From NCBI GenBank assembly GCA_944392445.1, contig CALXWT010000004.1:1-54336 (forward strand): a DNA stretch of 54,336 nt, read 5' to 3'. Each line of letters starts with the position of its first letter. Position 1 is the first letter of the stretch. Below, in pieces: positions 1 to 45,334 of the stretch. The notes beneath the pieces are model-generated. The model did no database searches, was not told the origin of the DNA, and worked only from the letters and a program-made list of their open reading frames with translations. A program made the translations under genes and the position numbers. The DNA comes from an uncultured Clostridia bacterium (GTDB taxonomy: Bacteria; Bacillota; Clostridia; TANB77; CAG-508).

Positions 1-926
1 CCAAAAACTATATTTGTTCTAATGTTAGTTTCGTCATTTTCATATACAGTTATAATCAGATTGTCCTGAATTTGTAATTGCCCAACTAATTCATCAAGCT
101 TTTGTGACAAGTTTGCTGTATCTGTATATTCGGTACCTAATCCTAATTTTGATAATTTGTCACTTACTAACATTAAAATCTCTGTATCTGTTTTTAATGC
201 ATTTATGCAATCTACTAATATTGAATATACGTTATCACTTGTTAATTCTATTTTATATACATTTGTATTGTAGCTTGTTCCGTTTATTTCTATAGTTTCT
301 TCTGTTTTTTGGTATGATTCCGAAGTTATATGTTGCATTATTATAGGTAAATATATGTCTGCTAGATGCTGTTTTTGAGCATCGGTTAGTTCAAACAGGT
401 TAATATAATTATTTTTGTCTATAGTATCTGGTACGTTGTCTATACCATAACTAGCTCCAAGTGCTGTTAAATTAAAGTTTTGTATTCCTACATAGCCATC
501 AAAAATTTCATCGCATTTTATACCGTATATATCCCCATTTCTTGCATAGGCCACTTTAAAAACGTCTAACTCTCCATTTTTTAATGTAATATCTGAGTAT
601 GTCCTATTTGTATTTACATCATGCCTTGCACTAGTCGAGACATTAAATCTTTTTGAGCTGACTTCTCCTTGAGTTAACACAACTGCTACATTTCCATTAG
701 ATGTATACGAATTTGTTTCTTTAAAACTTTCTTGAACTTTTATTTTGTCGTTCAGTATAGTTTGTGTAACATCACTTGCTTGTGCAAAGTATTTCCAAAA
801 CAACTCTTCATTAGACTCGCTTGAGTTTAAAAACCAAAATATTATTGCAATTATTATAGCTATTACAACTAAAATTAAAATTGGAACGGGTATAGCTATT
901 TTTAGGCTTTTTCTAGAATTATTCAT
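1..926 (-). CDS. Membrane-anchored/exported hypothetical protein (3' end outside window)
   Basis: ATG at 926 with AAGGAG RBS; reads MNNSRKSLKIAIPVPILILVVIAIIIAIIFWFLN (N-terminal TM). Missing from the ORF track, consistent with no stop before the window edge. Confidence 0.75.
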   Translation of the reverse strand, partial: MNNSRKSLKIAIPVPILILVVIAIIIAIIFWFLNSSESNEELFWKYFAQASDVTQTILNDKIKVQESFKETNSYTSNGNVAVVLTQGEVSSKRFNVSTSARHDVNTNRTYSDITLKNGELDVFKVAYARNGDIYGIKCDEIFDGYVGIQNFNLTALGASYGIDNVPDTIDKNNYINLFELTDAQKQHLADIYLPIIMQHITSESYQKTEETIEINGTSYNTNVYKIELTSDNVYSILVDCINALKTDTEILMLVSDKLSKLGLGTEYTDTANLSQKLDELVGQLQIQDNLIITVYENDETNIRTNIVF

Positions 927-6628: not shown

Positions 6629-7837
6629 ATGTCAAAAATATTTGAAGAACTAATGGAAAGGGGCTATATTGAGCAAGTAACTCATGAAGAACTAAAAGAT
6701 GTATTAGATAATAGTTCTATTCCTTTTTATATAGGTTTTGATCCAACTGCAGATAGCTTACATGTTGGCCATTTTGTTTCTATGATGGTAGCTGCACAAA
6801 TGCAAAAAGCTGGTCACAAACCAATTATTTTAATTGGTGGTGGTACTGCTACAATAGGTGACCCATCTGGAAAAACAGATATGAGAAGAATGATGTCTAG
6901 AGAAGAAATAAATCATAATGTAGAGTGTTTTAAAAATCAACTTTCTAAATTTATAAGTTTTGAAGGAGATAATGGAGCAATTATTGTAAATAATGCAGAT
7001 TGGCTTTTAAATTTAAACTTTGTTGAATTTATGAGAGATATTGGTTCACTATTTTCTGTAAATAAAATGCTTGCAGCAGAGTGCTATAAGCAAAGAATGG
7101 AAAGAGGATTAACATTTTTTGAGCTTGGATATATGCTAATGCAATCTTATGACTTTTTACATCTATACAATACATATGGATGCAAATTGCAAATGGGTGG
7201 AAATGACCAATGGTCAAATATTTTAGGTGGAGTTGATTTAATAAGAAGAATTGGACACTCTGATTCTTATGGTCTAACATTTAAACTTCTTACTACAAAA
7301 GAAGGTAAGAAAATGGGAAAAACAGAAAAAGGAGCATTATGGCTAGATGCTAATAAAACTTCTCCTTATGAGTTTTATCAATACTGGAGAAATATTGACG
7401 ACGCAGATGTAAAAACTGTTTTATCACTTTTAACTTTCTTGCCAATGGACGAAGTAAACAGATTATCTAGTTTAAAAGATGAACAAATAAATGAAGCTAA
7501 AAAGATAGCTGCATTTGAGATAACTAAACTAATTCATGGTGAAGAAGAAGCAAAAAAAGCTGAAGAAGCTGCTAAAGCTTTATTTGAAGGACAAGGCTCT
7601 TTAGAAAATATGCCAACTTCTAAAGTAGAAGCAAATATTTCTATTTTGGATGCAATTATTATAGCTGGTATGGCTCCTTCAAAAGGACAAGCAAGAACAC
7701 TTATTACACAGGGTGGTATTACTTTAAATGATGAAAAAATTACAGATGTAAACTATGTTTTATCTGATAATGATTTTAAAGGTGGATATGCTATTTTAAG
7801 AAAAGGCAAAAAAGTATATCATAAGTTGGAGAAATAA
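6629..7837 (+). CDS. tyrS: Tyrosine--tRNA ligase
   Basis: [15 protein letters not shown] (HIGH), [13 protein letters not shown] (KMSKS), C-terminal S4-like domain. Confidence 0.98.
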
Positions 7838-37536: not shown

Positions 37537-37612
37537 GGGCGCATAGCTCAGCTGGGAGAGCATCTGCCTTACAAGCAGGAGGTCATAGGTTCGAGCCCTA
37601 TTGCGCCCACCA
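37537..37612 (+). tRNA. tRNA-Val(TAC)
   Basis: Full cloverleaf, anticodon loop CTTACAA, encoded CCA. Confidence 0.97.
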
Positions 37613-37636
37613 TTTTTTTACTTTAATTTCCTATAC

Positions 37637-37713
37637 GGCCCGGTAGTTCAGTTGGTTAGAACGCTAGCCTGTCACGCTAGAGGTCGACGGTTCGAGCCCG
37701 TTCCGGGTCGCCA
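37637..37713 (+). tRNA. tRNA-Asp(GTC)
   Basis: Full cloverleaf, anticodon loop CTGTCAC, encoded CCA. Confidence 0.97.
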
Positions 37714-37733
37714 TTTTTTTGAATATATCATTT

Positions 37734-37809
37734 GGCTTGATAGCTCAGTTGGTAGAGCAAGGGACTGAAAATCCCTGTGTCAGTGGTTCGATTCCACTTC
37801 AAGCCACCA
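37734..37809 (+). tRNA. tRNA-Phe(GAA), prophage integration target
   Basis: Full cloverleaf, anticodon loop CTGAAAA, CCA; 3' half duplicated at 45275. Confidence 0.97.
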
Positions 37810-37823
37810 AAAAAAGTACCTAA
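37764..37823 (+). repeat. attL core (60 bp)
   Basis: ACTGAAAATCCCTGTGTCAGTGGTTCGATTCCACTTCAAGCCACCAAAAAAAGTACCTAA, identical to 45275-45334. Confidence 0.95.
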
Positions 37824-37841
37824 AACAGGTACTATTTTTTT
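37810..37841. terminator. Terminator after tRNA-Phe, shared with the convergent integrase
   Basis: AAAAAAGTACCT-AAAAC-AGGTACTATTTTTTT. Confidence 0.75.
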
Positions 37842-38716
37842 GTTAAAAAATAAGGTATATTTGTTAATGGAGAATATTTAGAACTCATAGCAATTAAAAC
37901 CTGATTAGCTATATGTACATATATTTCAGTCATATATAAAGTTTCGTGACCTAAAATAGTTTGCAACGATAAAGGGTCTCCACCATTTATGAGAAACCAG
38001 GTAGCAAAGCTATGACGCAAATAATGTGGGTATAATGTGGAAAAATGTAAAGCATCTCTCAAGTTTAATAGTAATCTTCTAATAGCAGATGTAGTGAGTT
38101 GTATACCAGCTATATTGACAGCAAGAAAATCATAAACCTGTGGAAACTTTAAATAATTTTTAAAATAATACAAAGTAACATCAGAAAGAGGAACAATGCG
38201 TTCCTTATTACCCTTGCCATGTACTTTAATAGATTTTAAATCAATATTAATATCACCTTTTCTTAAGTTAATTACTTCAGATACTCGTAATCCACAATCA
38301 AGCATTAAACTTATCAAAAACAAATTTCTAGCACCATAAAATTCATTCTCATTATAGTATGAATATAATTCTTCTATTTGCTCCTGTGATAATATAACAA
38401 TAGTTTTCTTACCACATTTAAAATTTTCAAGTTCAGAAACAATATCCTTACTAATTAATTTTTTATTATATAAAAAATTTAAGAAAACTCGAACAGCAAT
38501 CAAAGAAGTTTTTACAGTAGCATCAGAAATATTTTTTGAAAGTAAATACAAAGTATATTGTTCATAATCAGAAGCTTTAATTTTTCTAACATTTTTATCT
38601 TTTACAAAAGTTATAAAATAACCAATTCTTTTTTTATAATATTCTATTGTTTCTAAAGAATTATGTTTTAATTTTTGATAATACAAGAATTTATCTAAAG
38701 CTTTATTACATCTCAT
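37832..38716 (-). CDS. Tyrosine recombinase / phage integrase
   Basis: Catalytic set present: GLRVSE, GKGNKERIVP, HYLRH, LGH..TEIY. Confidence 0.93.
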   Translation of the reverse strand: MRCNKALDKFLYYQKLKHNSLETIEYYKKRIGYFITFVKDKNVRKIKASDYEQYTLYLLSKNISDATVKTSLIAVRVFLNFLYNKKLISKDIVSELENFKCGKKTIVILSQEQIEELYSYYNENEFYGARNLFLISLMLDCGLRVSEVINLRKGDINIDLKSIKVHGKGNKERIVPLSDVTLYYFKNYLKFPQVYDFLAVNIAGIQLTTSAIRRLLLNLRDALHFSTLYPHYLRHSFATWFLINGGDPLSLQTILGHETLYMTEIYVHIANQVLIAMSSKYSPLTNIPYFLTKK

Positions 38717-39754
38717 TTATACAACCTCTTTCCAAGAGAATGGGTCAAAATCAATTAAACATTCATCTAAATCAATATCAATTTTTTGTGAAAAATCTAT
38801 ATTAGCTGATTTTAAATCAGCAATATTTCTATAATATACACTTTTTTTAGTTCTTTTTCTTACAATATCAAGACCATCTATAATTATACTTAAATAAAAA
38901 TTATATAATCTACTAGCTTTTAAATTACCATATAAATCATTTAATCTTTTTTCTACTTTTTCTTTAGAACGTACCTTTTTTAAATCATTATCAAATATTT
39001 TTAACAACTTCATAAATTCATCACACCAAATCTTTTTTAAATCTTTATAACTAACATTTCTAACTCTAACATATTTATTATCATAAATACTTACAAGCTT
39101 TTTCTTTTTAATTTCGACTTCAAATCTAATAAAACCCTCTATAGTCTTTAAATAATTTATAATATCAAAATTACTATTCTTAAAATTTTTTAAATCGTGC
39201 TTTTTGAACTCCTGATATTTATTATAAATTTTAAGAGTAGTAGAAGAGCCACTATAATAAATACCAGTACCTCCAAAATCTCCATAGTTACGAAGAGTTC
39301 TACGAGGATAATCGCAACTATGTAAATTATTCAAGTAATTTATAACATTTTTTTGAGTAGATAAATCAAAACAAATTGCAATATCTACACGTTGTAAAAA
39401 CCAGTGTTTAATAGAAGGAAGAACAATATTATATGAATTTTCTACAAAACTAATAAGTTTAGAACAAACTTCATATAAATTATAAAAACCGTTATGAGAA
39501 TTATAACCTTGTATAATTTTGTGTAAACTTCCCTCTATCTCAATAAAGTATTGATTAACAAATCCATACTTAGCACCATTATCTACTCGAACAGATAATG
39601 AAGAGTCATAAGAACCTTGTAGGTGGTCATTAACTATATTATAATAAATCTCACCAGTAGAATTATGATAACTAGTTTTCACAATACTATTACTTTTTAC
39701 TTTTTCATATAATACTTTATCAATCATTGTATATATTTTAACTGTATCTATCAT
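38717..39754 (-). CDS. Rolling-circle replication initiator (filamentous phage gene II/X, Rep_trans-like)
   Basis: Probable start MIDTVK at 39754; IEGSLHK, RVDIA, LKIYNKYQE, RFEVE motifs; stop abuts the integrase ATG. Confidence 0.8.
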   Translation of the reverse strand: MIDTVKIYTMIDKVLYEKVKSNSIVKTSYHNSTGEIYYNIVNDHLQGSYDSSLSVRVDNGAKYGFVNQYFIEIEGSLHKIIQGYNSHNGFYNLYEVCSKLISFVENSYNIVLPSIKHWFLQRVDIAICFDLSTQKNVINYLNNLHSCDYPRRTLRNYGDFGGTGIYYSGSSTTLKIYNKYQEFKKHDLKNFKNSNFDIINYLKTIEGFIRFEVEIKKKKLVSIYDNKYVRVRNVSYKDLKKIWCDEFMKLLKIFDNDLKKVRSKEKVEKRLNDLYGNLKASRLYNFYLSIIIDGLDIVRKRTKKSVYYRNIADLKSANIDFSQKIDIDLDECLIDFDPFSWKEVV

Positions 39755-39790
39755 ATATAACACTCTTTTCATTGCCTTTTTGTATAATTT

Positions 39791-39835
39791 GTCCCAAAAT
39801 CGGGACTCTCGGAGGGTGTTACTAAGAACCCTCCG
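39791..39835 (-). other. Candidate double-strand origin (nick-site hairpin)
   Basis: Minus strand CGGAGGGT-TCTTAGTAAC-ACCCTCCG plus a GTCCC/GGGAC hairpin, just upstream of rep. Confidence 0.6.
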
Positions 39836-39956
39836 TATCTCCATTGAGATAACTATCAATTAAAAAATCCTGATATAATTCCTTTCGATTATTATAATTT
39901 GAATGATAAATAATATAATCTTCAAGATATTTTACATATTTTAATAAAACTTCCAT
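39822..39956 (-). CDS. Small prophage protein (44 aa)
   Basis: MEVLLKYVKYLEDY...; RBS GAAAGGGG before ATG 39956. Confidence 0.55.
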   Translation of the reverse strand: MEVLLKYVKYLEDYIIYHSNYNNRKELYQDFLIDSYLNGDTEGS

Positions 39957-40177: not shown

Positions 40178-40483
40178 TCATTTTATATTAATAAATGGCA
40201 ATTTCTTTAAAAACCAAAATACAAAACCATAAATATATTTAAAATTATAAAGTATAATTATTAAAGGTACTAAAAATTTTAATGTACTAGGTCTAACAAA
40301 AAATCCCAATAAGCTTAAATTTTCAAAAATTAAATCTAAAAAACTATAAATACTACTACTTAAAGTAGAAGGAAACTGAGGAAGAGAAATCCAACCAAAC
40401 AAAAAATCAATTAAATAATACAATCCGTTTAAAAGAGAATTCAATAAACTCCCCCAATCAAAATTAATAAGACCATCAAGCAT
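40178..40483 (-). CDS. pVI-like minor coat protein
   Basis: 101 aa, hydrophobic, basic C-terminus, coupled to the pIII-like gene. Confidence 0.65.
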   Translation of the reverse strand: MLDGLINFDWGSLLNSLLNGLYYLIDFLFGWISLPQFPSTLSSSIYSFLDLIFENLSLLGFFVRPSTLKFLVPLIIILYNFKYIYGFVFWFLKKLPFINIK

Positions 40484-42352
40484 TATTTAAAAACCTCCTC
40501 ATAAACTTTGTAGCAAAGATTAACAAATAAAAAAATTAATATAACATCAACAATAATAAAATAAATATTGTGAATAGTATTAACAATATCAATATTAAGA
40601 ATAGAATTAAAATTAAAATCAACACCATTAAAAAAAACAGTACCATCTAAGGGAGATTTTAATTCTGGTATAGTCAAAATAGGTTCATCATAATCTATAC
40701 TTGAAACTTCACTCATAAAATAATAAATGAGTTCAAAAGGATAAGTCAAAAAGCCAAAATGAAGTTTAGACCACGCAACCATTTTTGATGTAAAAATATC
40801 TATATTATCAATATTATCAGAAATAAACTGATTAATATCAACATCAATACTAGCAGTAGTATATTTATCAAGCTCAATATTATAAAATCTAAAATAATAA
40901 GTACCAGACATGACAACATCTTGATAAAAATAATAGATATCAATAGTAGAAGAACCTAAATCTTCAGATGTTTCACCTTCAGACCTACCACCACCAGACC
41001 AGCCACCACTAGGTCGTCCTAAATCTTCAATACGTCCACCACCAGACCAACCACCAGTATAATGTCCAGTAGTAAAAGTAAGAGTAGATTGGTAAGTATT
41101 ATATATTTGTTCAAAAGTCTCACCATCAGAAGAAAAATAACATTGAAGCATTATGTATTCATTAAAAATAAAAGGCTGTGTGCGTATTCTAACTGTAGTA
41201 GCATCAATATACTCTAGAAAAAGAACAGGAGTAGGGTCAAATTCTCCATTCTCATTATAATTATTATAAAAAACATCATCACCATACTGATTATCAATAC
41301 CTTTATTGGTTACATTAAAAGTTTGATAAGTAATTTCTTCAGTAGTAAGATTTTCAATTTTAAAAATATATGTACCATTAATTACAATTTCGAATTGTAA
41401 TTGAGTATAATTTTTTTGATTTTCCTCATCAGTTCCTTTTACAGAATACATAGTATATTCATAAGGACTATCTAAACCGATATGCAATTTCGATATTGTA
41501 ATTTTTTAAAAAATCTTGAGATGCATCATAATCACCTTCATAATAATATCTATTAGATAATACATAAAGAGGCTCTGTAGTTTGTTCTTCTGTAGATAAA
41601 TATAAATTTAAAGAACCAAAATCTTCATCAATTTCGGTACAATTAATAGTAAATGTATATTCTTCATCTTTTTCACTATCAACAATATTAATAGTATAAG
41701 TTCCATTCTCATAAATATCATAATAATAAACAAATTGTGTTTCATCAACATCATAATATTCCCAATTCAAACTATATACATTATCATTAGAATCCGTAAT
41801 TGTTGCAGTAATAAAACTAAATCTATCATAAGAAATAGAATTTGAACTTACTATCTGATAAAGATTTTGTTCCTCAATAAAATTTAAATCAAATCTAAAA
41901 GAGCCATTAAAGAAAATACTACCGTCTTCATTATAAATATTAATATCCGAATAAACCGTATTATAAATATTATTTCTTAAATTCATTCCTTGTATACCAT
42001 TTGGAATCATAGTTCTATTATATGTATAAGACCAATTAACCACTGTTGTAGTTTGAGGACTAGATAAATCATAATATGTAATATTTTCATTAGTAATATT
42101 TTTGAAATTAATAATAGAATCACCATCAAAAGTAGCCTCTACAGTATTTTTTGGAAAAGCAAAAGCACGAATCCAATTATCACCACTAACACCACGCCTA
42201 ACATAAATATCAAAAGAAGACTCATCAAAAGGAAAACTCAAATCATAAGTTTCATCACCAGATTTAAATGTAAGAGCGTCACATTCATTAAAATTAATTA
42301 AAAAAATAATAAATATAAAAAATACTAAAGTAAAGAAAAACTTTTTTAACAT
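40483..42352 (-). CDS. pIII-like adsorption protein, split into two overlapping ORFs (41468-42352, 40483-41487) by a +1 shift
   Basis: Signal peptide in the first ORF and TM anchor in the second; [NS]GTY repeats in both; Gly-rich linker; second ORF lacks an RBS. Confidence 0.7.
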
Positions 42353-42691: not shown

Positions 42692-43597
42692 TTACTTTAA
42701 AACTTCATTCTTTACAACAATATTATTTAAGTCATAAATATTATTTTGAGTAGTTCCTTTCCATTCTTTTCTATATCTCTTCATCTTTTTATAAGTATCA
42801 TAAGAATTATATAAATCAACAGAATGGAACCAGAAAACTCTTTTTACAGTGTTGAAACAAAGCTTTCCATTATCTTCATAAGCAGTCTCACCATCTACAA
42901 GTCTGTTATACTGTATAAATTTAAAGAAATTACGACAAATTACGACTTCTTTTATTTGTTCTCTAAGAGGTTTAGCCATTCTCATATAAACTTGTGATGT
43001 TCCTACAATATGTTTACGTTGCTTACGTTGTTGAGAAACTTCTACCATAACGTCAATTGGTATATTTTTACTTTCAAGAGAATTGAACTCAAGATGTATC
43101 TCATCAATTAAATAAAGAATACCTTCTTCGCCATTCTCAAGCTCTTTTAAACAGTTTATACCATTATACTCAATAACAATTCGACCAGAAAAGCCTATTA
43201 CTTCAAATTTTTCAATTTCAGCTTGTTGTTCTCCATCTAAATAAAAAGATTTTACTCTACGAACTAATTCATTACCTAAAAGTGTATAATATTCAACAAT
43301 ATGTTTTTCAATATTATTCTCTTTAACAGTAAAATCTTTATAGTAACAATTAATAGGATAATCACGTATTTCTACATTAGTACAAAAAATACAATTATAA
43401 TATTTGTCCAGGCATTTTTGAGAATACTGTACAGCAGAAAGTGTCTTCCCAGAACCTTGACTACCACAAAAAACCATAAGCCCATCAGGTACAAAATAAT
43501 TTGGGTGTTCTTTACCAAATTGAAGCCTATTTTTTATTACTTTAAAGAAATTGATAATATTTAAAGAACCTTTAAGTAATTCTGTATCAATAGCCAT
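42692..43597 (-). CDS. Zot/pI-family morphogenesis ATPase
   Basis: Walker A GSQGSGKT, Walker B LYLIDEIH, SQQRK..IVGTSQ..KPLRE. Confidence 0.88.
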   Translation of the reverse strand: MAIDTELLKGSLNIINFFKVIKNRLQFGKEHPNYFVPDGLMVFCGSQGSGKTLSAVQYSQKCLDKYYNCIFCTNVEIRDYPINCYYKDFTVKENNIEKHIVEYYTLLGNELVRRVKSFYLDGEQQAEIEKFEVIGFSGRIVIEYNGINCLKELENGEEGILYLIDEIHLEFNSLESKNIPIDVMVEVSQQRKQRKHIVGTSQVYMRMAKPLREQIKEVVICRNFFKFIQYNRLVDGETAYEDNGKLCFNTVKRVFWFHSVDLYNSYDTYKKMKRYRKEWKGTTQNNIYDLNNIVVKNEVLK

Positions 43598-43609: not shown

Positions 43610-43747
43610 CTATAAAAACATTTTTAAAATTAAATATATAGCTAAACCATAAAGAATAATTTTAAAAATATTTTTAATAAAATAACTTAATTTCATAAGA
43701 AATCTAAAAATTTTCTTTAATAATTTTTTTAAAACAAAAAAACTCAT
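43610..43747 (-). CDS. Small basic membrane protein (45 aa), not in ORF track
   Basis: MSFFVLKKLLKKIFRFLMKLSYFIKNIFKIILYGLAIYLILKMFL; RBS GAGGT; stop sits beside the pI RBS. Confidence 0.6.
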   Translation of the reverse strand: MSFFVLKKLLKKIFRFLMKLSYFIKNIFKIILYGLAIYLILKMFL

Positions 43748-43774: not shown

Positions 43775-43839
43775 GGGGCACAATAGGATTCGAACCTATA
43801 TCACATTAATAAAAAGCTTTACCATTAAGCTATGTGCCC
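43775..43839 (-). ncRNA. tRNA-like element lacking an anticodon arm
   Basis: GGGCACA-TA-GCTT AATGGTA AAGC-16 nt-ATAGG TTCGAAT CCTAT-TGTGCCC-C. Confidence 0.8.
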
Positions 43840-43864
43840 ATAACTAAAAATAAAATTTTTAGAG

Positions 43865-43920
43865 GTTTCCTAATCGGAAACGCCAAAAGGTAAGGGAAAA
43901 AGACAAAAAGCCTTTTTCCC
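43865..43920 (-). terminator. Two hairpins downstream of the major coat gene
   Basis: GGGAAAAAG/CTTTTTCCC (43894-43920) and GTTTCC/GGAAAC (43865-43881); U tracts are weak. Confidence 0.5.
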
Positions 43921-43926
43921 ATATAA

Positions 43927-44118
43927 TTAGACTTTAAGTCTACCTCTCATAGCATTTTTTACAACGCTTATTAATTTTCTTATACCAAACCAAGTTAGAT
44001 ATAATGCAATACCACCAGCAAGGACTATACCTATGATAGTTGCAACATCTCCAGGAGATATAGATTCATTAAGAGTTGTACCAACAGTATTTAATGCATT
44101 AGTAATCTCTGCGTCCAT
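43927..44118 (-). CDS. Major coat protein (pVIII-like)
   Basis: 63 aa: acidic N-terminus, single TM (IIGIVLAGGIALYLTWFGI), basic C-terminus (RKLISVVKNAMRGRLKV); strong RBS GAAAGGAG. Confidence 0.8.
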   Translation of the reverse strand: MDAEITNALNTVGTTLNESISPGDVATIIGIVLAGGIALYLTWFGIRKLISVVKNAMRGRLKV

Positions 44119-44673: not shown

Positions 44674-44751
44674 ATACAATTATTTAGTTGTATTTTCAAA
44701 AACAGTATACAACTAATTTGTTGTATTGTCAATACAATTATTTAATTGTAT
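44674..44751. promoter_or_regulatory. Three repressor operators ATACAA-N8-TTGTAT and a leftward sigma-A promoter
   Basis: Operators at 44674-44693, 44707-44726, 44732-44751; minus-strand TTGACA (44727-44732)-17 bp-TATACT (44704-44709). Confidence 0.85.
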
Positions 44752-44778
44752 TGTAAAATTTTTATAGAGGTGATACAG

Positions 44779-45012: not shown

Positions 45013-45279
45013 ATGTACACAGATTTAAAAACATATCTAATGCATATACAAATGTTAGAAATAATAAATATAATAACTTATGGCTTAATAATAATAGTAC
45101 CATCATTAATAACCAAAATATATACAGATAATCTAAAATATACACTAATAGTATTTATTATATGTACAATAGTTGGATACTTAATATATGCAACAAATCA
45201 AATAAAAGCAGATAATCATAAATTACAAATAGATATGTATTTACAATTAAAAGAAATAAAAAAAGAAGGGAAAAACTGA
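45013..45279 (+). CDS. Two-TM prophage membrane protein
   Basis: ATG directly follows the repressor TAA; TGA lies inside attR. Confidence 0.7.
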   Translation: MYTDLKTYLMHIQMLEIINIITYGLIIIVPSLITKIYTDNLKYTLIVFIICTIVGYLIYATNQIKADNHKLQIDMYLQLKEIKKEGKN

Positions 45280-45334
45280 AAATCCCTGTGTCAGTGGTTC
45301 GATTCCACTTCAAGCCACCAAAAAAAGTACCTAA
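45275..45334 (+). repeat. attR core (3' half of tRNA-Phe)
   Basis: Identical to 37764-37823; followed by terminator arm AGGTACTATTTTTT. Confidence 0.95.

What the first reader, a model, noticed from the sequence alone, without database searches (positions are those of the whole stretch)
43775..43839. Anticodon-less tRNA mimic inside a filamentous prophage operon
Seen: the minus strand reads GGGCACA TA GCTT AATGGTA AAGC TTTTTATTAATGTGAT ATAGG TTCGAAT CCTAT TGTGCCC C. It has a perfect 7-bp acceptor stem, a 4-bp D stem with GG in the loop, and a 5-bp T stem with a TTCGAAT loop. Only 16 unpaired AT-rich nt lie where anticodon arm plus variable loop need about 23, and no CCA is encoded. Against host tRNA-Val (37537) the T stem is identical, and the acceptor (G-C to A-T) and D stem (C-G to T-A) differ by compensatory pairs, which suggests selection on the elbow/acceptor shape. 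It is sense-oriented between the major coat gene (plus two hairpins) and the pI/minor-coat genes. Established: RNase P and RNase Z recognise the acceptor stem and elbow, not the anticodon. Inference: a processing signal that cuts the polycistronic mRNA to set coat versus morphogenesis stoichiometry (mascRNA-like), a tRNA decoy, or an ssDNA structural signal.
Basis: partly seen in the sequence, partly recalled or inferred. Interest (0 to 1): 0.88.

Follow-up and report, generated by a model that had tools for sequence, protein, structure and literature searches.

The report
Anticodon-less tRNA look-alike in filamentous prophage
A 65-base tRNA-shaped element with no anticodon arm sits between the coat gene and the assembly genes of a small filamentous prophage, and similar elements turn up in many other phages just upstream of packaging genes, so it is probably an RNA processing signal and not a broken tRNA.

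Summary
Window 43775-43839 (-) scores 52.7 bits on Rfam tRNA. It has a perfect acceptor stem, D arm and T arm, a 16-nt unpaired linker in place of the anticodon arm, and no CCA. ARAGORN does not call it. It lies in a 7.5-kb inovirus prophage integrated in tRNA-Phe, after the coat-gene terminator and 27 nt before the first assembly-module ORF.

It is rare. One close relative carries it unchanged amid diverged flanks. One other lineage carries an unrelated aberrant tRNA-like at the same spot. About 100 other inovirus loci have none.

All three hosts showed no RNase Z above the family cut-off and no CCA-adding enzyme match. The window's own host has RNase P RNA and RNase J. This argues against Z-cleavage and CCA addition but leaves RNase P cleavage possible.

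Pattern scans found at least 52 distinct tRNA-likes with a shortened or missing anticodon arm in tailed phages. Compared with canonical phage tRNAs, they are more often solitary, preceded by a terminator hairpin and followed within 15-45 nt by an RBS-ORF, often terS, portal or adaptor.

Best reading (0.45): a cis-acting RNase P substrate, like a plant-mitochondrial t-element, that separates coat and assembly mRNAs. No RNA data were available.

The parts
43775..43839 (-). 65-nt tRNA-like element: 7-bp acceptor stem, 4-bp D stem with an AATGGTA loop, 16-nt unpaired linker, 5-bp T stem with a TTCGAAT loop, discriminator C
   Evidence: 100% identical in L048
43768..43774 (-). 3' trailer CTGACAC with no CCA; it lies inside the 76-nt run that is identical in L048
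43894..43920 (-). intrinsic-terminator-like hairpin after the coat gene (11 pairs, then a T-rich tail)
   Evidence: equivalent hairpins in relatives
43840..43888 (-). two extra small hairpins between the terminator and the element; most of this stretch is gapped in the alignment with L048, so it appears dispensable
43927..44118 (-). 63-aa major-coat-like ORF (hydrophobic core, basic C-terminus); it has no family hit and is named from position and from similarity to coat ORFs of relatives
43610..43747 (-). 45-aa basic/hydrophobic small ORF, first gene after the element (GAGG RBS; the ATG lies 27 nt after the element); similar small ORFs are seen in L019, L022, L025, L028 and L048
42692..43597 (-). 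pI/Zot-like assembly ATPase (Walker A motif GSQGSGKT)
   Evidence: (weak Zot hits)
38717..39859 (-). rolling-circle replication protein (G2P family)
37832..38716 (-). tyrosine integrase
37764..37823 (+). attL: 60-bp repeat running from the tRNA-Phe anticodon loop to the 3' end and beyond
   Evidence: D2, 100%
45275..45334 (+). attR: second copy of the 60-bp repeat; the prophage spans about 7.5 kb
44704..44732 (-). best sigma-70-like promoter for the structural operon (TTGACA-17-TATACT); the scan found no promoter-like site between the terminator and the element

Best explanation
The element is a cis-acting tRNA-shaped processing module, comparable to a plant-mitochondrial t-element. It would be transcribed only when RNA polymerase reads through the coat-gene terminator. 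Host RNase P (type A RNA) then cuts at its 5' end (U-1/G+1). The upstream product is a coat mRNA that ends in the terminator hairpin. The downstream product is the assembly-module mRNA (small ORF, pI and later genes), which now begins with a flush, fully paired tRNA-like 5' end that should resist the host's 5'-exonuclease RNase J. No RNase Z cut and no CCA addition are expected, so the element cannot be charged or used in decoding. Shown: the structure, the position, sequence conservation in one relative, the host enzyme repertoire, and the recurrence of the same terminator / tRNA-like / RBS-ORF layout in other phages. Inferred: transcription, the RNase P cut, and the effect on stability.
For: 1. 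The fold and the RNase P determinants are intact. RNase P accepts pre-tRNA mimics that lack the anticodon stem-loop (PMC4693268, passages read).
2. The host has RNase P RNA at 279.9 bits against a gathering score of 100 and RNase J at 685.5 bits against a cut-off of 400.
3. Position: terminator, then the element, then 27 nt, then an RBS-ATG. The scan found no promoter-like site in between.
4. In L048 the phage is 91.2% identical overall (2690 of 2950). The element is 65 of 65 identical, while the aligned flanks are 26 of 38 (plus 49 gap columns) and 19 of 27.
5. In L025 an unrelated 79-nt aberrant tRNA-like (36.1 bits, not called by ARAGORN, no CCA) sits at the same place, after the coat terminator and about 20 nt before an RBS-ORF.
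6. No tRNA in 300 other family genomes lies within 3 mismatches of the element's 5' 24 nt. So it is not a fresh copy of a tRNA from those genomes, yet every stem is perfect.
7. Class evidence. 52 of 75 distinct pattern hits in viral contigs have a linker of 7-19 nt but intact acceptor, D and T stems.
8. Compared with canonical-length hits of the same motif, these 52 have another tRNA within 300 nt less often (16 of 52 against 63 of 92). They more often have an RBS-ORF at +15..45 (14 of 50 against 8 of 88). They more often have a terminator-like hairpin within 25 nt upstream (14 of 50 against 3 of 92).
9. Of 10 downstream ORFs scanned, 5 are packaging or connector genes: three terS families, a portal and a head-tail adaptor. 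The figure is 0 of 10 for canonical controls.
Against: 2. The element is rare. It gave 0 hits in 16 IMG/VR relatives. It gave 0 full hits in 60 further inovirus loci. Among the 25 family prophage loci only L025 has any tRNA-like. The closest pI relatives, L019, L020 and L021 (63-71% aa), lack it. The phage group therefore manages without it.
3. The only second copy is identical, so there is no covariation within the lineage.
4. The 76-nt identical run is only the fourth longest in the alignment with L048 (runs of 105, 101 and 83 nt exist). Local recombination could explain it.
5. The class statistics count related phages as independent rows and rest on my own crude ORF, RBS and hairpin rules.
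6. The 3'-RCCA contact of bacterial RNase P is missing (my recall of that contact).
Confidence: 0.45

Rival explanations
1. A trans-acting stable tRNA mimic. After RNase P cleavage and 3' trimming, a 65-nt L-shaped RNA accumulates. It would bind or titrate a host factor that recognises the tRNA elbow or acceptor, such as a tRNA-targeting defence nuclease or a modification enzyme. It could never be decoded or charged.
For: The full elbow is kept (G18 G19, T54 to C56, A58, U8, A14), which is more than a minimal RNase P site needs. The anticodon and CCA are both missing, and no CCA-adding enzyme match was found. Sixteen of 52 class members sit in or near phage tRNA arrays, for example L051 and L067, where co-processing into small RNAs is expected. 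tRNA-cutting defences exist; the only basis here is the listing and abstract start of PMC12445682.
Against: No partner is known. No expression data exist. Most class members are solitary and sit directly before an ORF, which fits a cis role better. This reading does not exclude the cis reading.
Confidence: 0.2
2. A non-functional relic. A tRNA gene picked up by illegitimate recombination lost its anticodon arm and CCA, and is carried neutrally in one of the few intergenic gaps of the phage.
For: It is lineage-specific and absent from about 100 related loci. Only two copies were found, both identical. Longer identical runs exist elsewhere in the alignment. The phage has only a few intergenic gaps (my estimate of about four comes from reading the ORF list, not from a count), so a shared position with L025 is weak evidence. 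The phage's integrase works on tRNA genes.
Against: There are no stem-breaking changes. Yet no tRNA in the 300 other family genomes searched lies within 3 mismatches of its 5' 24 nt, and the own genome's only match is the element itself. The flanks are heavily diverged while the element shows 0 changes in 65 nt. At least 52 independent phage elements show the same precise loss with intact stems and a non-random context. This is not what scattered decay predicts.
Confidence: 0.17
3. A DNA-level signal. The packaged strand has the sense of the genes, so the cloverleaf could fold in ssDNA and act as a complementary-strand origin, a packaging signal or a recombination site.
For: The DNA fold gives the same junction, -8.3 kcal/mol, z -2.19. 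The element lies in a hairpin-rich intergenic stretch next to the assembly ATPase gene.
Against: Relatives have only a terminator hairpin at this place, so essential origin or packaging signals must lie elsewhere. Conserved D-loop and T-loop tertiary nucleotides have no evident role in a DNA hairpin. Look-alike elements occur in dsDNA tailed phages. The real att site is the 60-bp tRNA-Phe repeat.
Confidence: 0.08

Closest known systems
Plant mitochondrial t-elements (PMC1920247, passages read)
   Same: They are non-canonical tRNA-like folds with a conserved GGTTCRANYCC T arm, embedded in transcripts next to mRNAs. They are proposed or shown to direct tRNA-processing endonucleases that create mRNA ends. 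The element here carries GGTTCGAATCC and lies between two mRNA segments.
   Different: t-elements are organellar and are cut by RNase P and RNase Z, with non-encoded C/A added. Here no RNase Z above cut-off and no CCA-adding enzyme match was found in the host. The setting is a bacteriophage, and no RNA ends have been mapped.
mascRNA / MALAT1-type and gammaherpesvirus tRNA-like RNAs (recalled, no call)
   Same: They are tRNA mimics with an aberrant anticodon arm. They are never decoded and are released from a longer transcript by tRNA-processing enzymes.
   Different: As I recall, those depend on RNase Z and CCA addition. Neither enzyme was detected here above cut-off. They are eukaryotic or animal-virus systems.
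Canonical phage-encoded tRNAs
   Same: Same Rfam family match, with the same D-loop and T-loop motifs. Some class members lie in phage tRNA arrays.
   Different: This element has no anticodon stem-loop and no CCA, and ARAGORN does not call it. Class members are called in 2 of 52 cases against 91 of 92 for canonical hits, and they are mostly solitary.
tmRNA tRNA-like domain and bacterial Y-RNA (YrlA) tRNA-like module (tmRNA recalled; YrlA PMC4201824 seen in listing and abstract start only)
   Same: Both are bacterial or phage RNAs that mimic the acceptor/T/D part of a tRNA without a decoding anticodon.
   Different: ARAGORN finds no tmRNA here. There is no tag reading frame. No Ro-binding stem is evident, and no such Rfam family was listed for the element in the E-value scan, where one lower-scoring overlapping match from the same clan was left out. 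The topology is a plain linear cloverleaf minus one arm.
RNase P cleavage of non-tRNA substrates: operon mRNAs and the C4 RNA precursor of phages P1/P7 (recalled); minimal guide-sequence substrates lacking the anticodon arm (PMC4693268, passages)
   Same: They show that RNase P can process tRNA-like sites inside mRNAs and phage transcripts, and that the anticodon arm is dispensable for cleavage.
   Different: As I recall, those natural substrates are only loosely tRNA-like. This one is a near-perfect tRNA minus one arm.

Membership tests
tRNA (Rfam RF00005) | Score at or above the gathering threshold over the full model | tested here: met
   52.7 bits against 29, model positions 1-71
tRNA (functional adaptor) | Anticodon stem of about 5 bp with a 7-nt loop | tested here: not met
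   A 16-nt linker; Infernal forces a 1-nt loop; the centroid fold leaves the linker unpaired and the RNA MFE adds only a weak 4-bp hairpin; ARAGORN makes no call
tRNA (functional adaptor) | A 3' CCA, either encoded or addable by the host | tested here: not met
   The trailer reads C-CTG; 31 of 31 host tRNAs encode CCA; no PF01743 match in a 97% complete genome
t-element-like processing signal | Non-canonical cloverleaf with a conserved T arm (GGTTCRANYCC) and an acceptor stem | tested here: met
   GGTTCGAATCC and a 7-bp acceptor stem; the motif definition comes from PMC1920247
t-element-like processing signal | Lies within a transcript beside mRNA coding regions, in the sense orientation | tested here: inconclusive
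   Same strand as the flanking genes, and the scan found no promoter-like site of its own; transcription itself was not observed
t-element-like processing signal | RNA ends coincide with the borders of the element | not testable with these tools
t-element-like processing signal | The processing enzymes are present in the host | tested here: inconclusive
   RNase P RNA is present at 279.9 bits; no RNase Z is found above the cut-off
mascRNA-like tRNA mimic | 3' cut by RNase Z followed by CCA addition | tested here: not met
   No RNase Z equivalog above the cut-off and no PF01743 match in G000, G301 or G134
tmRNA | tRNA-like domain plus a tag reading frame, detectable by ARAGORN | tested here: not met
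   ARAGORN reports no tmRNA in the window
Inovirus (filamentous) prophage | G2P-type rolling-circle Rep, Zot/pI-like assembly ATPase and a small coat gene in a genome of 5-10 kb | tested here: met
   PF05144 at 1.5e-18; phrog_197 Zot-like at 3.4e-05 (weak); 7.5 kb between 60-bp att repeats; DNA matches to deposited 'Inovirus sp.' records in the pI gene
Phage tRNA-likes with a shortened or missing anticodon arm (class proposed here) | Acceptor at least 6 of 7 pairs, D at least 3 of 4, T at least 4 of 5, and 7-19 nt between the D and T stems | tested here: met
   The window element has 7/7, 4/4 and 5/5 pairs with a 16-nt linker; it aligns without gaps to 36 other members
Phage tRNA-likes with a shortened or missing anticodon arm (class proposed here) | Terminator-like hairpin shortly upstream and an RBS-ORF 15-45 nt downstream | tested here: met
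   ORF at +27. The terminator ends 54 nt upstream in the window, 9 nt upstream in L048 and 13 nt upstream in L025

The most novel reading that the evidence does not exclude
Phages of unrelated kinds (tailed dsDNA phages and this ssDNA inovirus) may share an undescribed RNA device. It is a tRNA stripped of its anticodon arm, placed right after a terminator and 15-45 nt before the first gene of the packaging or assembly module. It would recruit host RNase P to cut the transcript and leave a tRNA-shaped cap on the late mRNA. Alternatively, it would yield a small non-decodable tRNA mimic that acts in trans during morphogenesis or against tRNA-directed defences.
Probability: 0.3. Interest if true: 0.85.

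Novelty: new variant of a known kind. Interest (0 to 1): 0.68.

Why it matters
tRNA-shaped processing signals inside mRNAs are established for organelles and for a few eukaryotic and viral transcripts. My searches found no report of them in phage operons. If RNase P cuts here, it would show how a 7.5-kb phage separates the fate of its abundant coat mRNA from that of its scarce assembly mRNA. It would also explain a set of tRNA-like genes that ARAGORN does not call in 50 of 52 cases in gut and environmental phages. Many of these lie in front of terminase, portal or adaptor genes. The element is also a natural, compact RNase P-dependent insulator of the kind used in synthetic biology. The host finding adds a natural test case. 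All its tRNA genes encode CCA, and no RNase Z or CCA-adding enzyme was detected. A CCA-less tRNA mimic could therefore hardly be charged there.

Tried and rejected
**Other Rfam families at the site.** Plastid-ycf2 scored 28.4 against 65.7, SpF41 25.8 against 52, SprD 20.1 against 100 and SNORD22 16.9 against 50. All are far below their gathering scores and were rejected.

**att-site remnant.** Rejected. The true att is the 60-bp tRNA-Phe repeat at the prophage ends. The element carries both tRNA halves and lies 1.4 kb inside the prophage.

**Recent copy of a host-family tRNA.** Not supported. The 5' 24 nt matched 0 of 300 other family genomes at up to 3 mismatches.

**Covariation within the lineage.** Not obtainable. 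A strict pattern found only L048 in genome contigs, and that copy is identical. It found nothing in viral contigs. The metagenome scan returned 10 loci, none from this phage.

**More copies of the L025-type element.** Among 50 other genomes of its genus there were only short partial matches of 21-38 nt.

**Inovirus genes among the class loci.** None found by tblastn.

**Deposited phages.** 16 of 50,697 records matched. The 10 listed covered only 2-6% of the query, in the pI or repressor genes; none of those 10 overlaps the element, and the 6 unlisted records were not seen.

**Expression.** The look-up of sequencing runs listed 20 holders in 10 studies, and no RNA holder was listed.

**Literature.** Searches found no paper describing tRNA-like elements without an anticodon arm in inoviruses or upstream of phage packaging genes. 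PMC10690425 (passages) lists thousands of candidate phage RNAs. Its supplements are closed and may already contain some of these elements. PMC11662646 and PMC13434031 (passages) proved irrelevant.

**Rows dropped.** 23 of 75 distinct pattern hits failed the stem criteria and were left out of the later counts. These include the L049/L066 type, L050, L057 and L065. Alignment A1 used 9 of 13 distinct types. Alignment A3 used the 35 members with linkers of 16 nt or less, plus the window element and L064. Both alignments were preselected for pairing, so their paired percentages are descriptive only.

Full report
**What is there**

On the minus strand, window 43775-43839 reads as a tRNA with one arm missing. 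Rfam's tRNA model matches end to end at 52.7 bits, against a gathering score of 29. The alignment shows a perfect acceptor stem, D arm and T arm. The anticodon region is collapsed to a 1-nt loop with low posterior probability. ARAGORN calls the three host tRNAs at 37537-37809 but not this element.

Thermodynamic folding gives the same three-way junction as the centroid for RNA and as MFE and centroid for DNA; the RNA MFE adds a weak 4-bp hairpin in the linker. RNA is -17.5 kcal/mol with z -1.87, and DNA is -8.3 kcal/mol with z -2.19. The junction also appears within a 196-nt context, z -4.13. Sixteen unpaired AU-rich nucleotides join the D and T stems. After discriminator C the sequence reads CTG, so no CCA is encoded. 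This includes the resemblance to tRNA-Val(tac), the nearest of the 31 host tRNAs, which differs by one double change in the acceptor stem and one in the D stem.

**Context**

A perfect 60-bp direct repeat, 37764-37823 and 45275-45334, covers tRNA-Phe from its anticodon loop to beyond its 3' end. It brackets a 7.5-kb element. All structural genes are on the minus strand. The element encodes:
- a tyrosine integrase
- a G2P-type rolling-circle Rep protein
- a weakly Zot-like pI ATPase
- several small hydrophobic ORFs
- a 63-aa coat-like ORF
- an HTH repressor, transcribed divergently

Deposited 'Inovirus sp.' and related records match the pI gene at the DNA level. This is a filamentous prophage.

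The order on the coding strand is as follows. First comes a promoter-like site at 44732-44704, then an 89-aa ORF and the coat gene at 43927-44118. These are followed by a terminator-like hairpin at 43920-43894 and two small hairpins. Next comes the tRNA-like element and then 27 nt containing a GAGG RBS. The small ORF at 43610-43747 and pI at 42692-43597 complete the order. The scan found no promoter-like site between the terminator and the element. It is the only copy in the 1.64-Mb genome. With model R1 it is also the only match shorter than 70 nt.

**Relatives**

Using pI as a marker I collected:
- 16 IMG/VR loci (42-55% aa identity)
- loci from 25 of 300 other family genomes
- 60 further IMG/VR loci from a pI alignment

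Rfam at gathering score and ARAGORN found nothing in the first 16. Rfam found one hit among the 25 family loci L019-L043. Model R1 found only the window, L048, L025 and the host tRNAs in 43 sources. It found no full match in the 60 further loci.

The closest pI relatives are L019, L020 and L021 (63-71% identity). After the coat gene, L019 has a terminator hairpin followed directly by the RBS of a similar small ORF, L020 has only about 50 nt before pI, and L021 has a terminator hairpin and a different ORF. The element is thus an accessory of one lineage and not a core part of these phages. No relative carries a complete tRNA at this place.

Two loci do carry something.

L048 is a MAG contig found by an exact pattern in genome contigs. 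It holds a phage that is 91.2% identical overall and is also integrated in tRNA-Phe. There the element plus 4 nt upstream and 7 nt downstream is identical: 76 nt in all, with the element itself 65 of 65. The adjoining non-coding flanks are 26 of 38 identical, with 49 gap columns, and 19 of 27. That fits purifying selection. However, three longer identical runs exist elsewhere in the alignment, so a local recombination patch cannot be excluded.

L025 comes from another genus of the same family. It has a different 79-nt tRNA-like element (36.1 bits, not called by ARAGORN, 6-nt loop on a bulged stem, no CCA). It sits at the equivalent place, 13 nt after the coat terminator and about 20 nt before an RBS-ORF. 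It too is a singleton in its genus.

**Host enzymes**

The host genome is 97% complete.
- It has a type A RNase P RNA at 279.9 bits.
- It has RNase J at 685.5 bits.
- Its best RNase Z-like hit is a generic MBL hydrolase at 34.7-40.5 bits, against a cut-off of 292.95.
- No PF01743 (CCA-adding enzyme) match was found.
- All 31 of 31 tRNA genes encode CCA.

The hosts of L048 and L025 likewise show no PF01743 match and no RNase Z above the cut-off. RNase P remains available. Published work on guide-sequence substrates states that pre-tRNA mimics lacking the anticodon stem-loop are cleaved (PMC4693268, passages).

**A wider class**

A degenerate pattern fixed only the D-loop and T-loop motifs and allowed a gap too short for an anticodon arm.

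Of 75 distinct sequences, 52 have an in-register acceptor stem of at least 6 of 7 pairs, together with T and D stems. By my own estimate, chance would give about 2% for the acceptor stem alone. The linker lengths are bimodal. One group has 7-11 nt, meaning the arm is gone, often leaving a variable-loop-like ..GTC. The other has 18-19 nt, mostly forming a mini-hairpin.

I compared these 52 with 92 canonical-length hits of the same motif. The p values are Fisher tests in which related phages are counted as independent, and the detection rules are my own.

| Feature | Short-linker | Canonical | Fisher p |
|---|---|---|---|
| Called by ARAGORN | 2 of 52 | 91 of 92 | not tested |
| Another tRNA within 300 nt | 16 of 52 | 63 of 92 | 2e-5 |
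| RBS-ORF starting at +15..45 | 14 of 50 | 8 of 88 | 0.007 |
| Terminator-like hairpin ending within 25 nt upstream | 14 of 50 | 3 of 92 | 3e-5 |

Ten downstream ORFs of short-linker elements were scanned. They comprise three different terminase small-subunit families (standing for seven phages), a portal protein and a head-tail adaptor, plus five others. Ten control ORFs after canonical tRNAs include no packaging gene.

In the terS group the linker varies from 9 to 14 nt, and the T and acceptor stems change while staying paired. None of these contigs is an inovirus.

**Interpretation**

The window element shares the same layout: terminator, then a tRNA-like without an anticodon arm, then a short spacer, then the RBS of the first morphogenesis gene. 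The most economical reading is a cis-acting RNase P site of the kind known as t-elements in plant mitochondria (PMC1920247, passages).

Read-through transcripts would be cut at 43839. The coat mRNA would keep its terminator hairpin. The assembly mRNA would start with a fully paired tRNA-like 5' end, which should be a poor substrate for RNase J. That last point is inference from general knowledge of Firmicute mRNA decay. I put this reading at 0.45.

The rivals are:
- A stable trans-acting mimic (0.20). It is not exclusive of the cis role and cannot be told apart from it without RNA data.
- A neutral relic (0.17). Rarity favours it. Against it are the perfect stems, the lack of any close parent tRNA in 300 other family genomes, the diverged flanks and the recurrence of the class.
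- An ssDNA-level role (0.08). Nothing in the data specifically supports it.

**Limits**

No transcript data could be obtained. Within its own lineage the element shows no variation, so covariation could be tested only across the class, which is not one homologous family. Supplements of PMC10690425, which may already list such RNAs, were closed.

Noticed in passing
window 37764-37823 and 45275-45334: A perfect 60-bp direct repeat, from the tRNA-Phe anticodon loop to past its 3' end, brackets an apparently intact 7.5-kb inovirus prophage. L048's phage shows the same repeat sequence at its aligned end (64 of 64 identical).
   Followed up: yes
window 44674-44758: Three 27-nt direct repeats (81-100% alike) lie between the divergent HTH repressor gene and the structural operon promoter. 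They look like operators.
   Followed up: no
G000 whole genome; also G301 and G134: This bacterial lineage encodes CCA in all 31 detected tRNA genes. No RNase Z above the family cut-off and no PF01743 CCA-adding enzyme match was found. The last two points also hold in two related hosts.
   Followed up: partly
window 40483-41487 (-), repeats at 40955-41056: The 334-aa ORF has tandem Gly-rich GGWSGGGR-type linkers, as in pIII-like receptor-binding minor coat proteins. It has no family hit.
   Followed up: no
L049, L052-L054, L056, L058, L062, L063 (one sequence type); L066, L069, L072 (a related type): A recurrent sequence in large phage contigs has tRNA-like D and T arms and a mini-hairpin, but no in-register acceptor stem. 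In L049 and L066 it is followed by a terminator. It may be an unclassified sRNA.
   Followed up: no
L313:8502-8563, L315:406-463, L320:2299-2360, L334:5826-5887, L353:1730-1791, L301:663-720, L287:436-498: A group of gut-phage tRNA-likes without an anticodon arm lies 22-43 nt upstream of terminase small-subunit genes from three PHROG families. In L313, L315, L320 and L334 the script found a GC-rich terminator-like hairpin just upstream. The linker length varies from 9 to 14 nt.
   Followed up: partly
L203 (upstream of 6922-7701, -) and L059:27-94: Two homologous phrog_2152/DUF6353 genes are each preceded by a different aberrant tRNA-like: a 4-bp stem with a 6-nt loop in L203, and a 5-bp stem with a 3-nt loop in L059.
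   Followed up: partly
L065:808-1030 (-): Two truncated tRNA-like units in tandem lie directly upstream of a canonical tRNA-Asn in a 10-kb metagenome contig. Neither has a paired acceptor stem in the standard register.
   Followed up: no
L025:897-1066: The L025 phage has an extra 56-aa ORF between its tRNA-like element and the conserved small ORF. The tRNA-like and this ORF may have arrived together.
   Followed up: no
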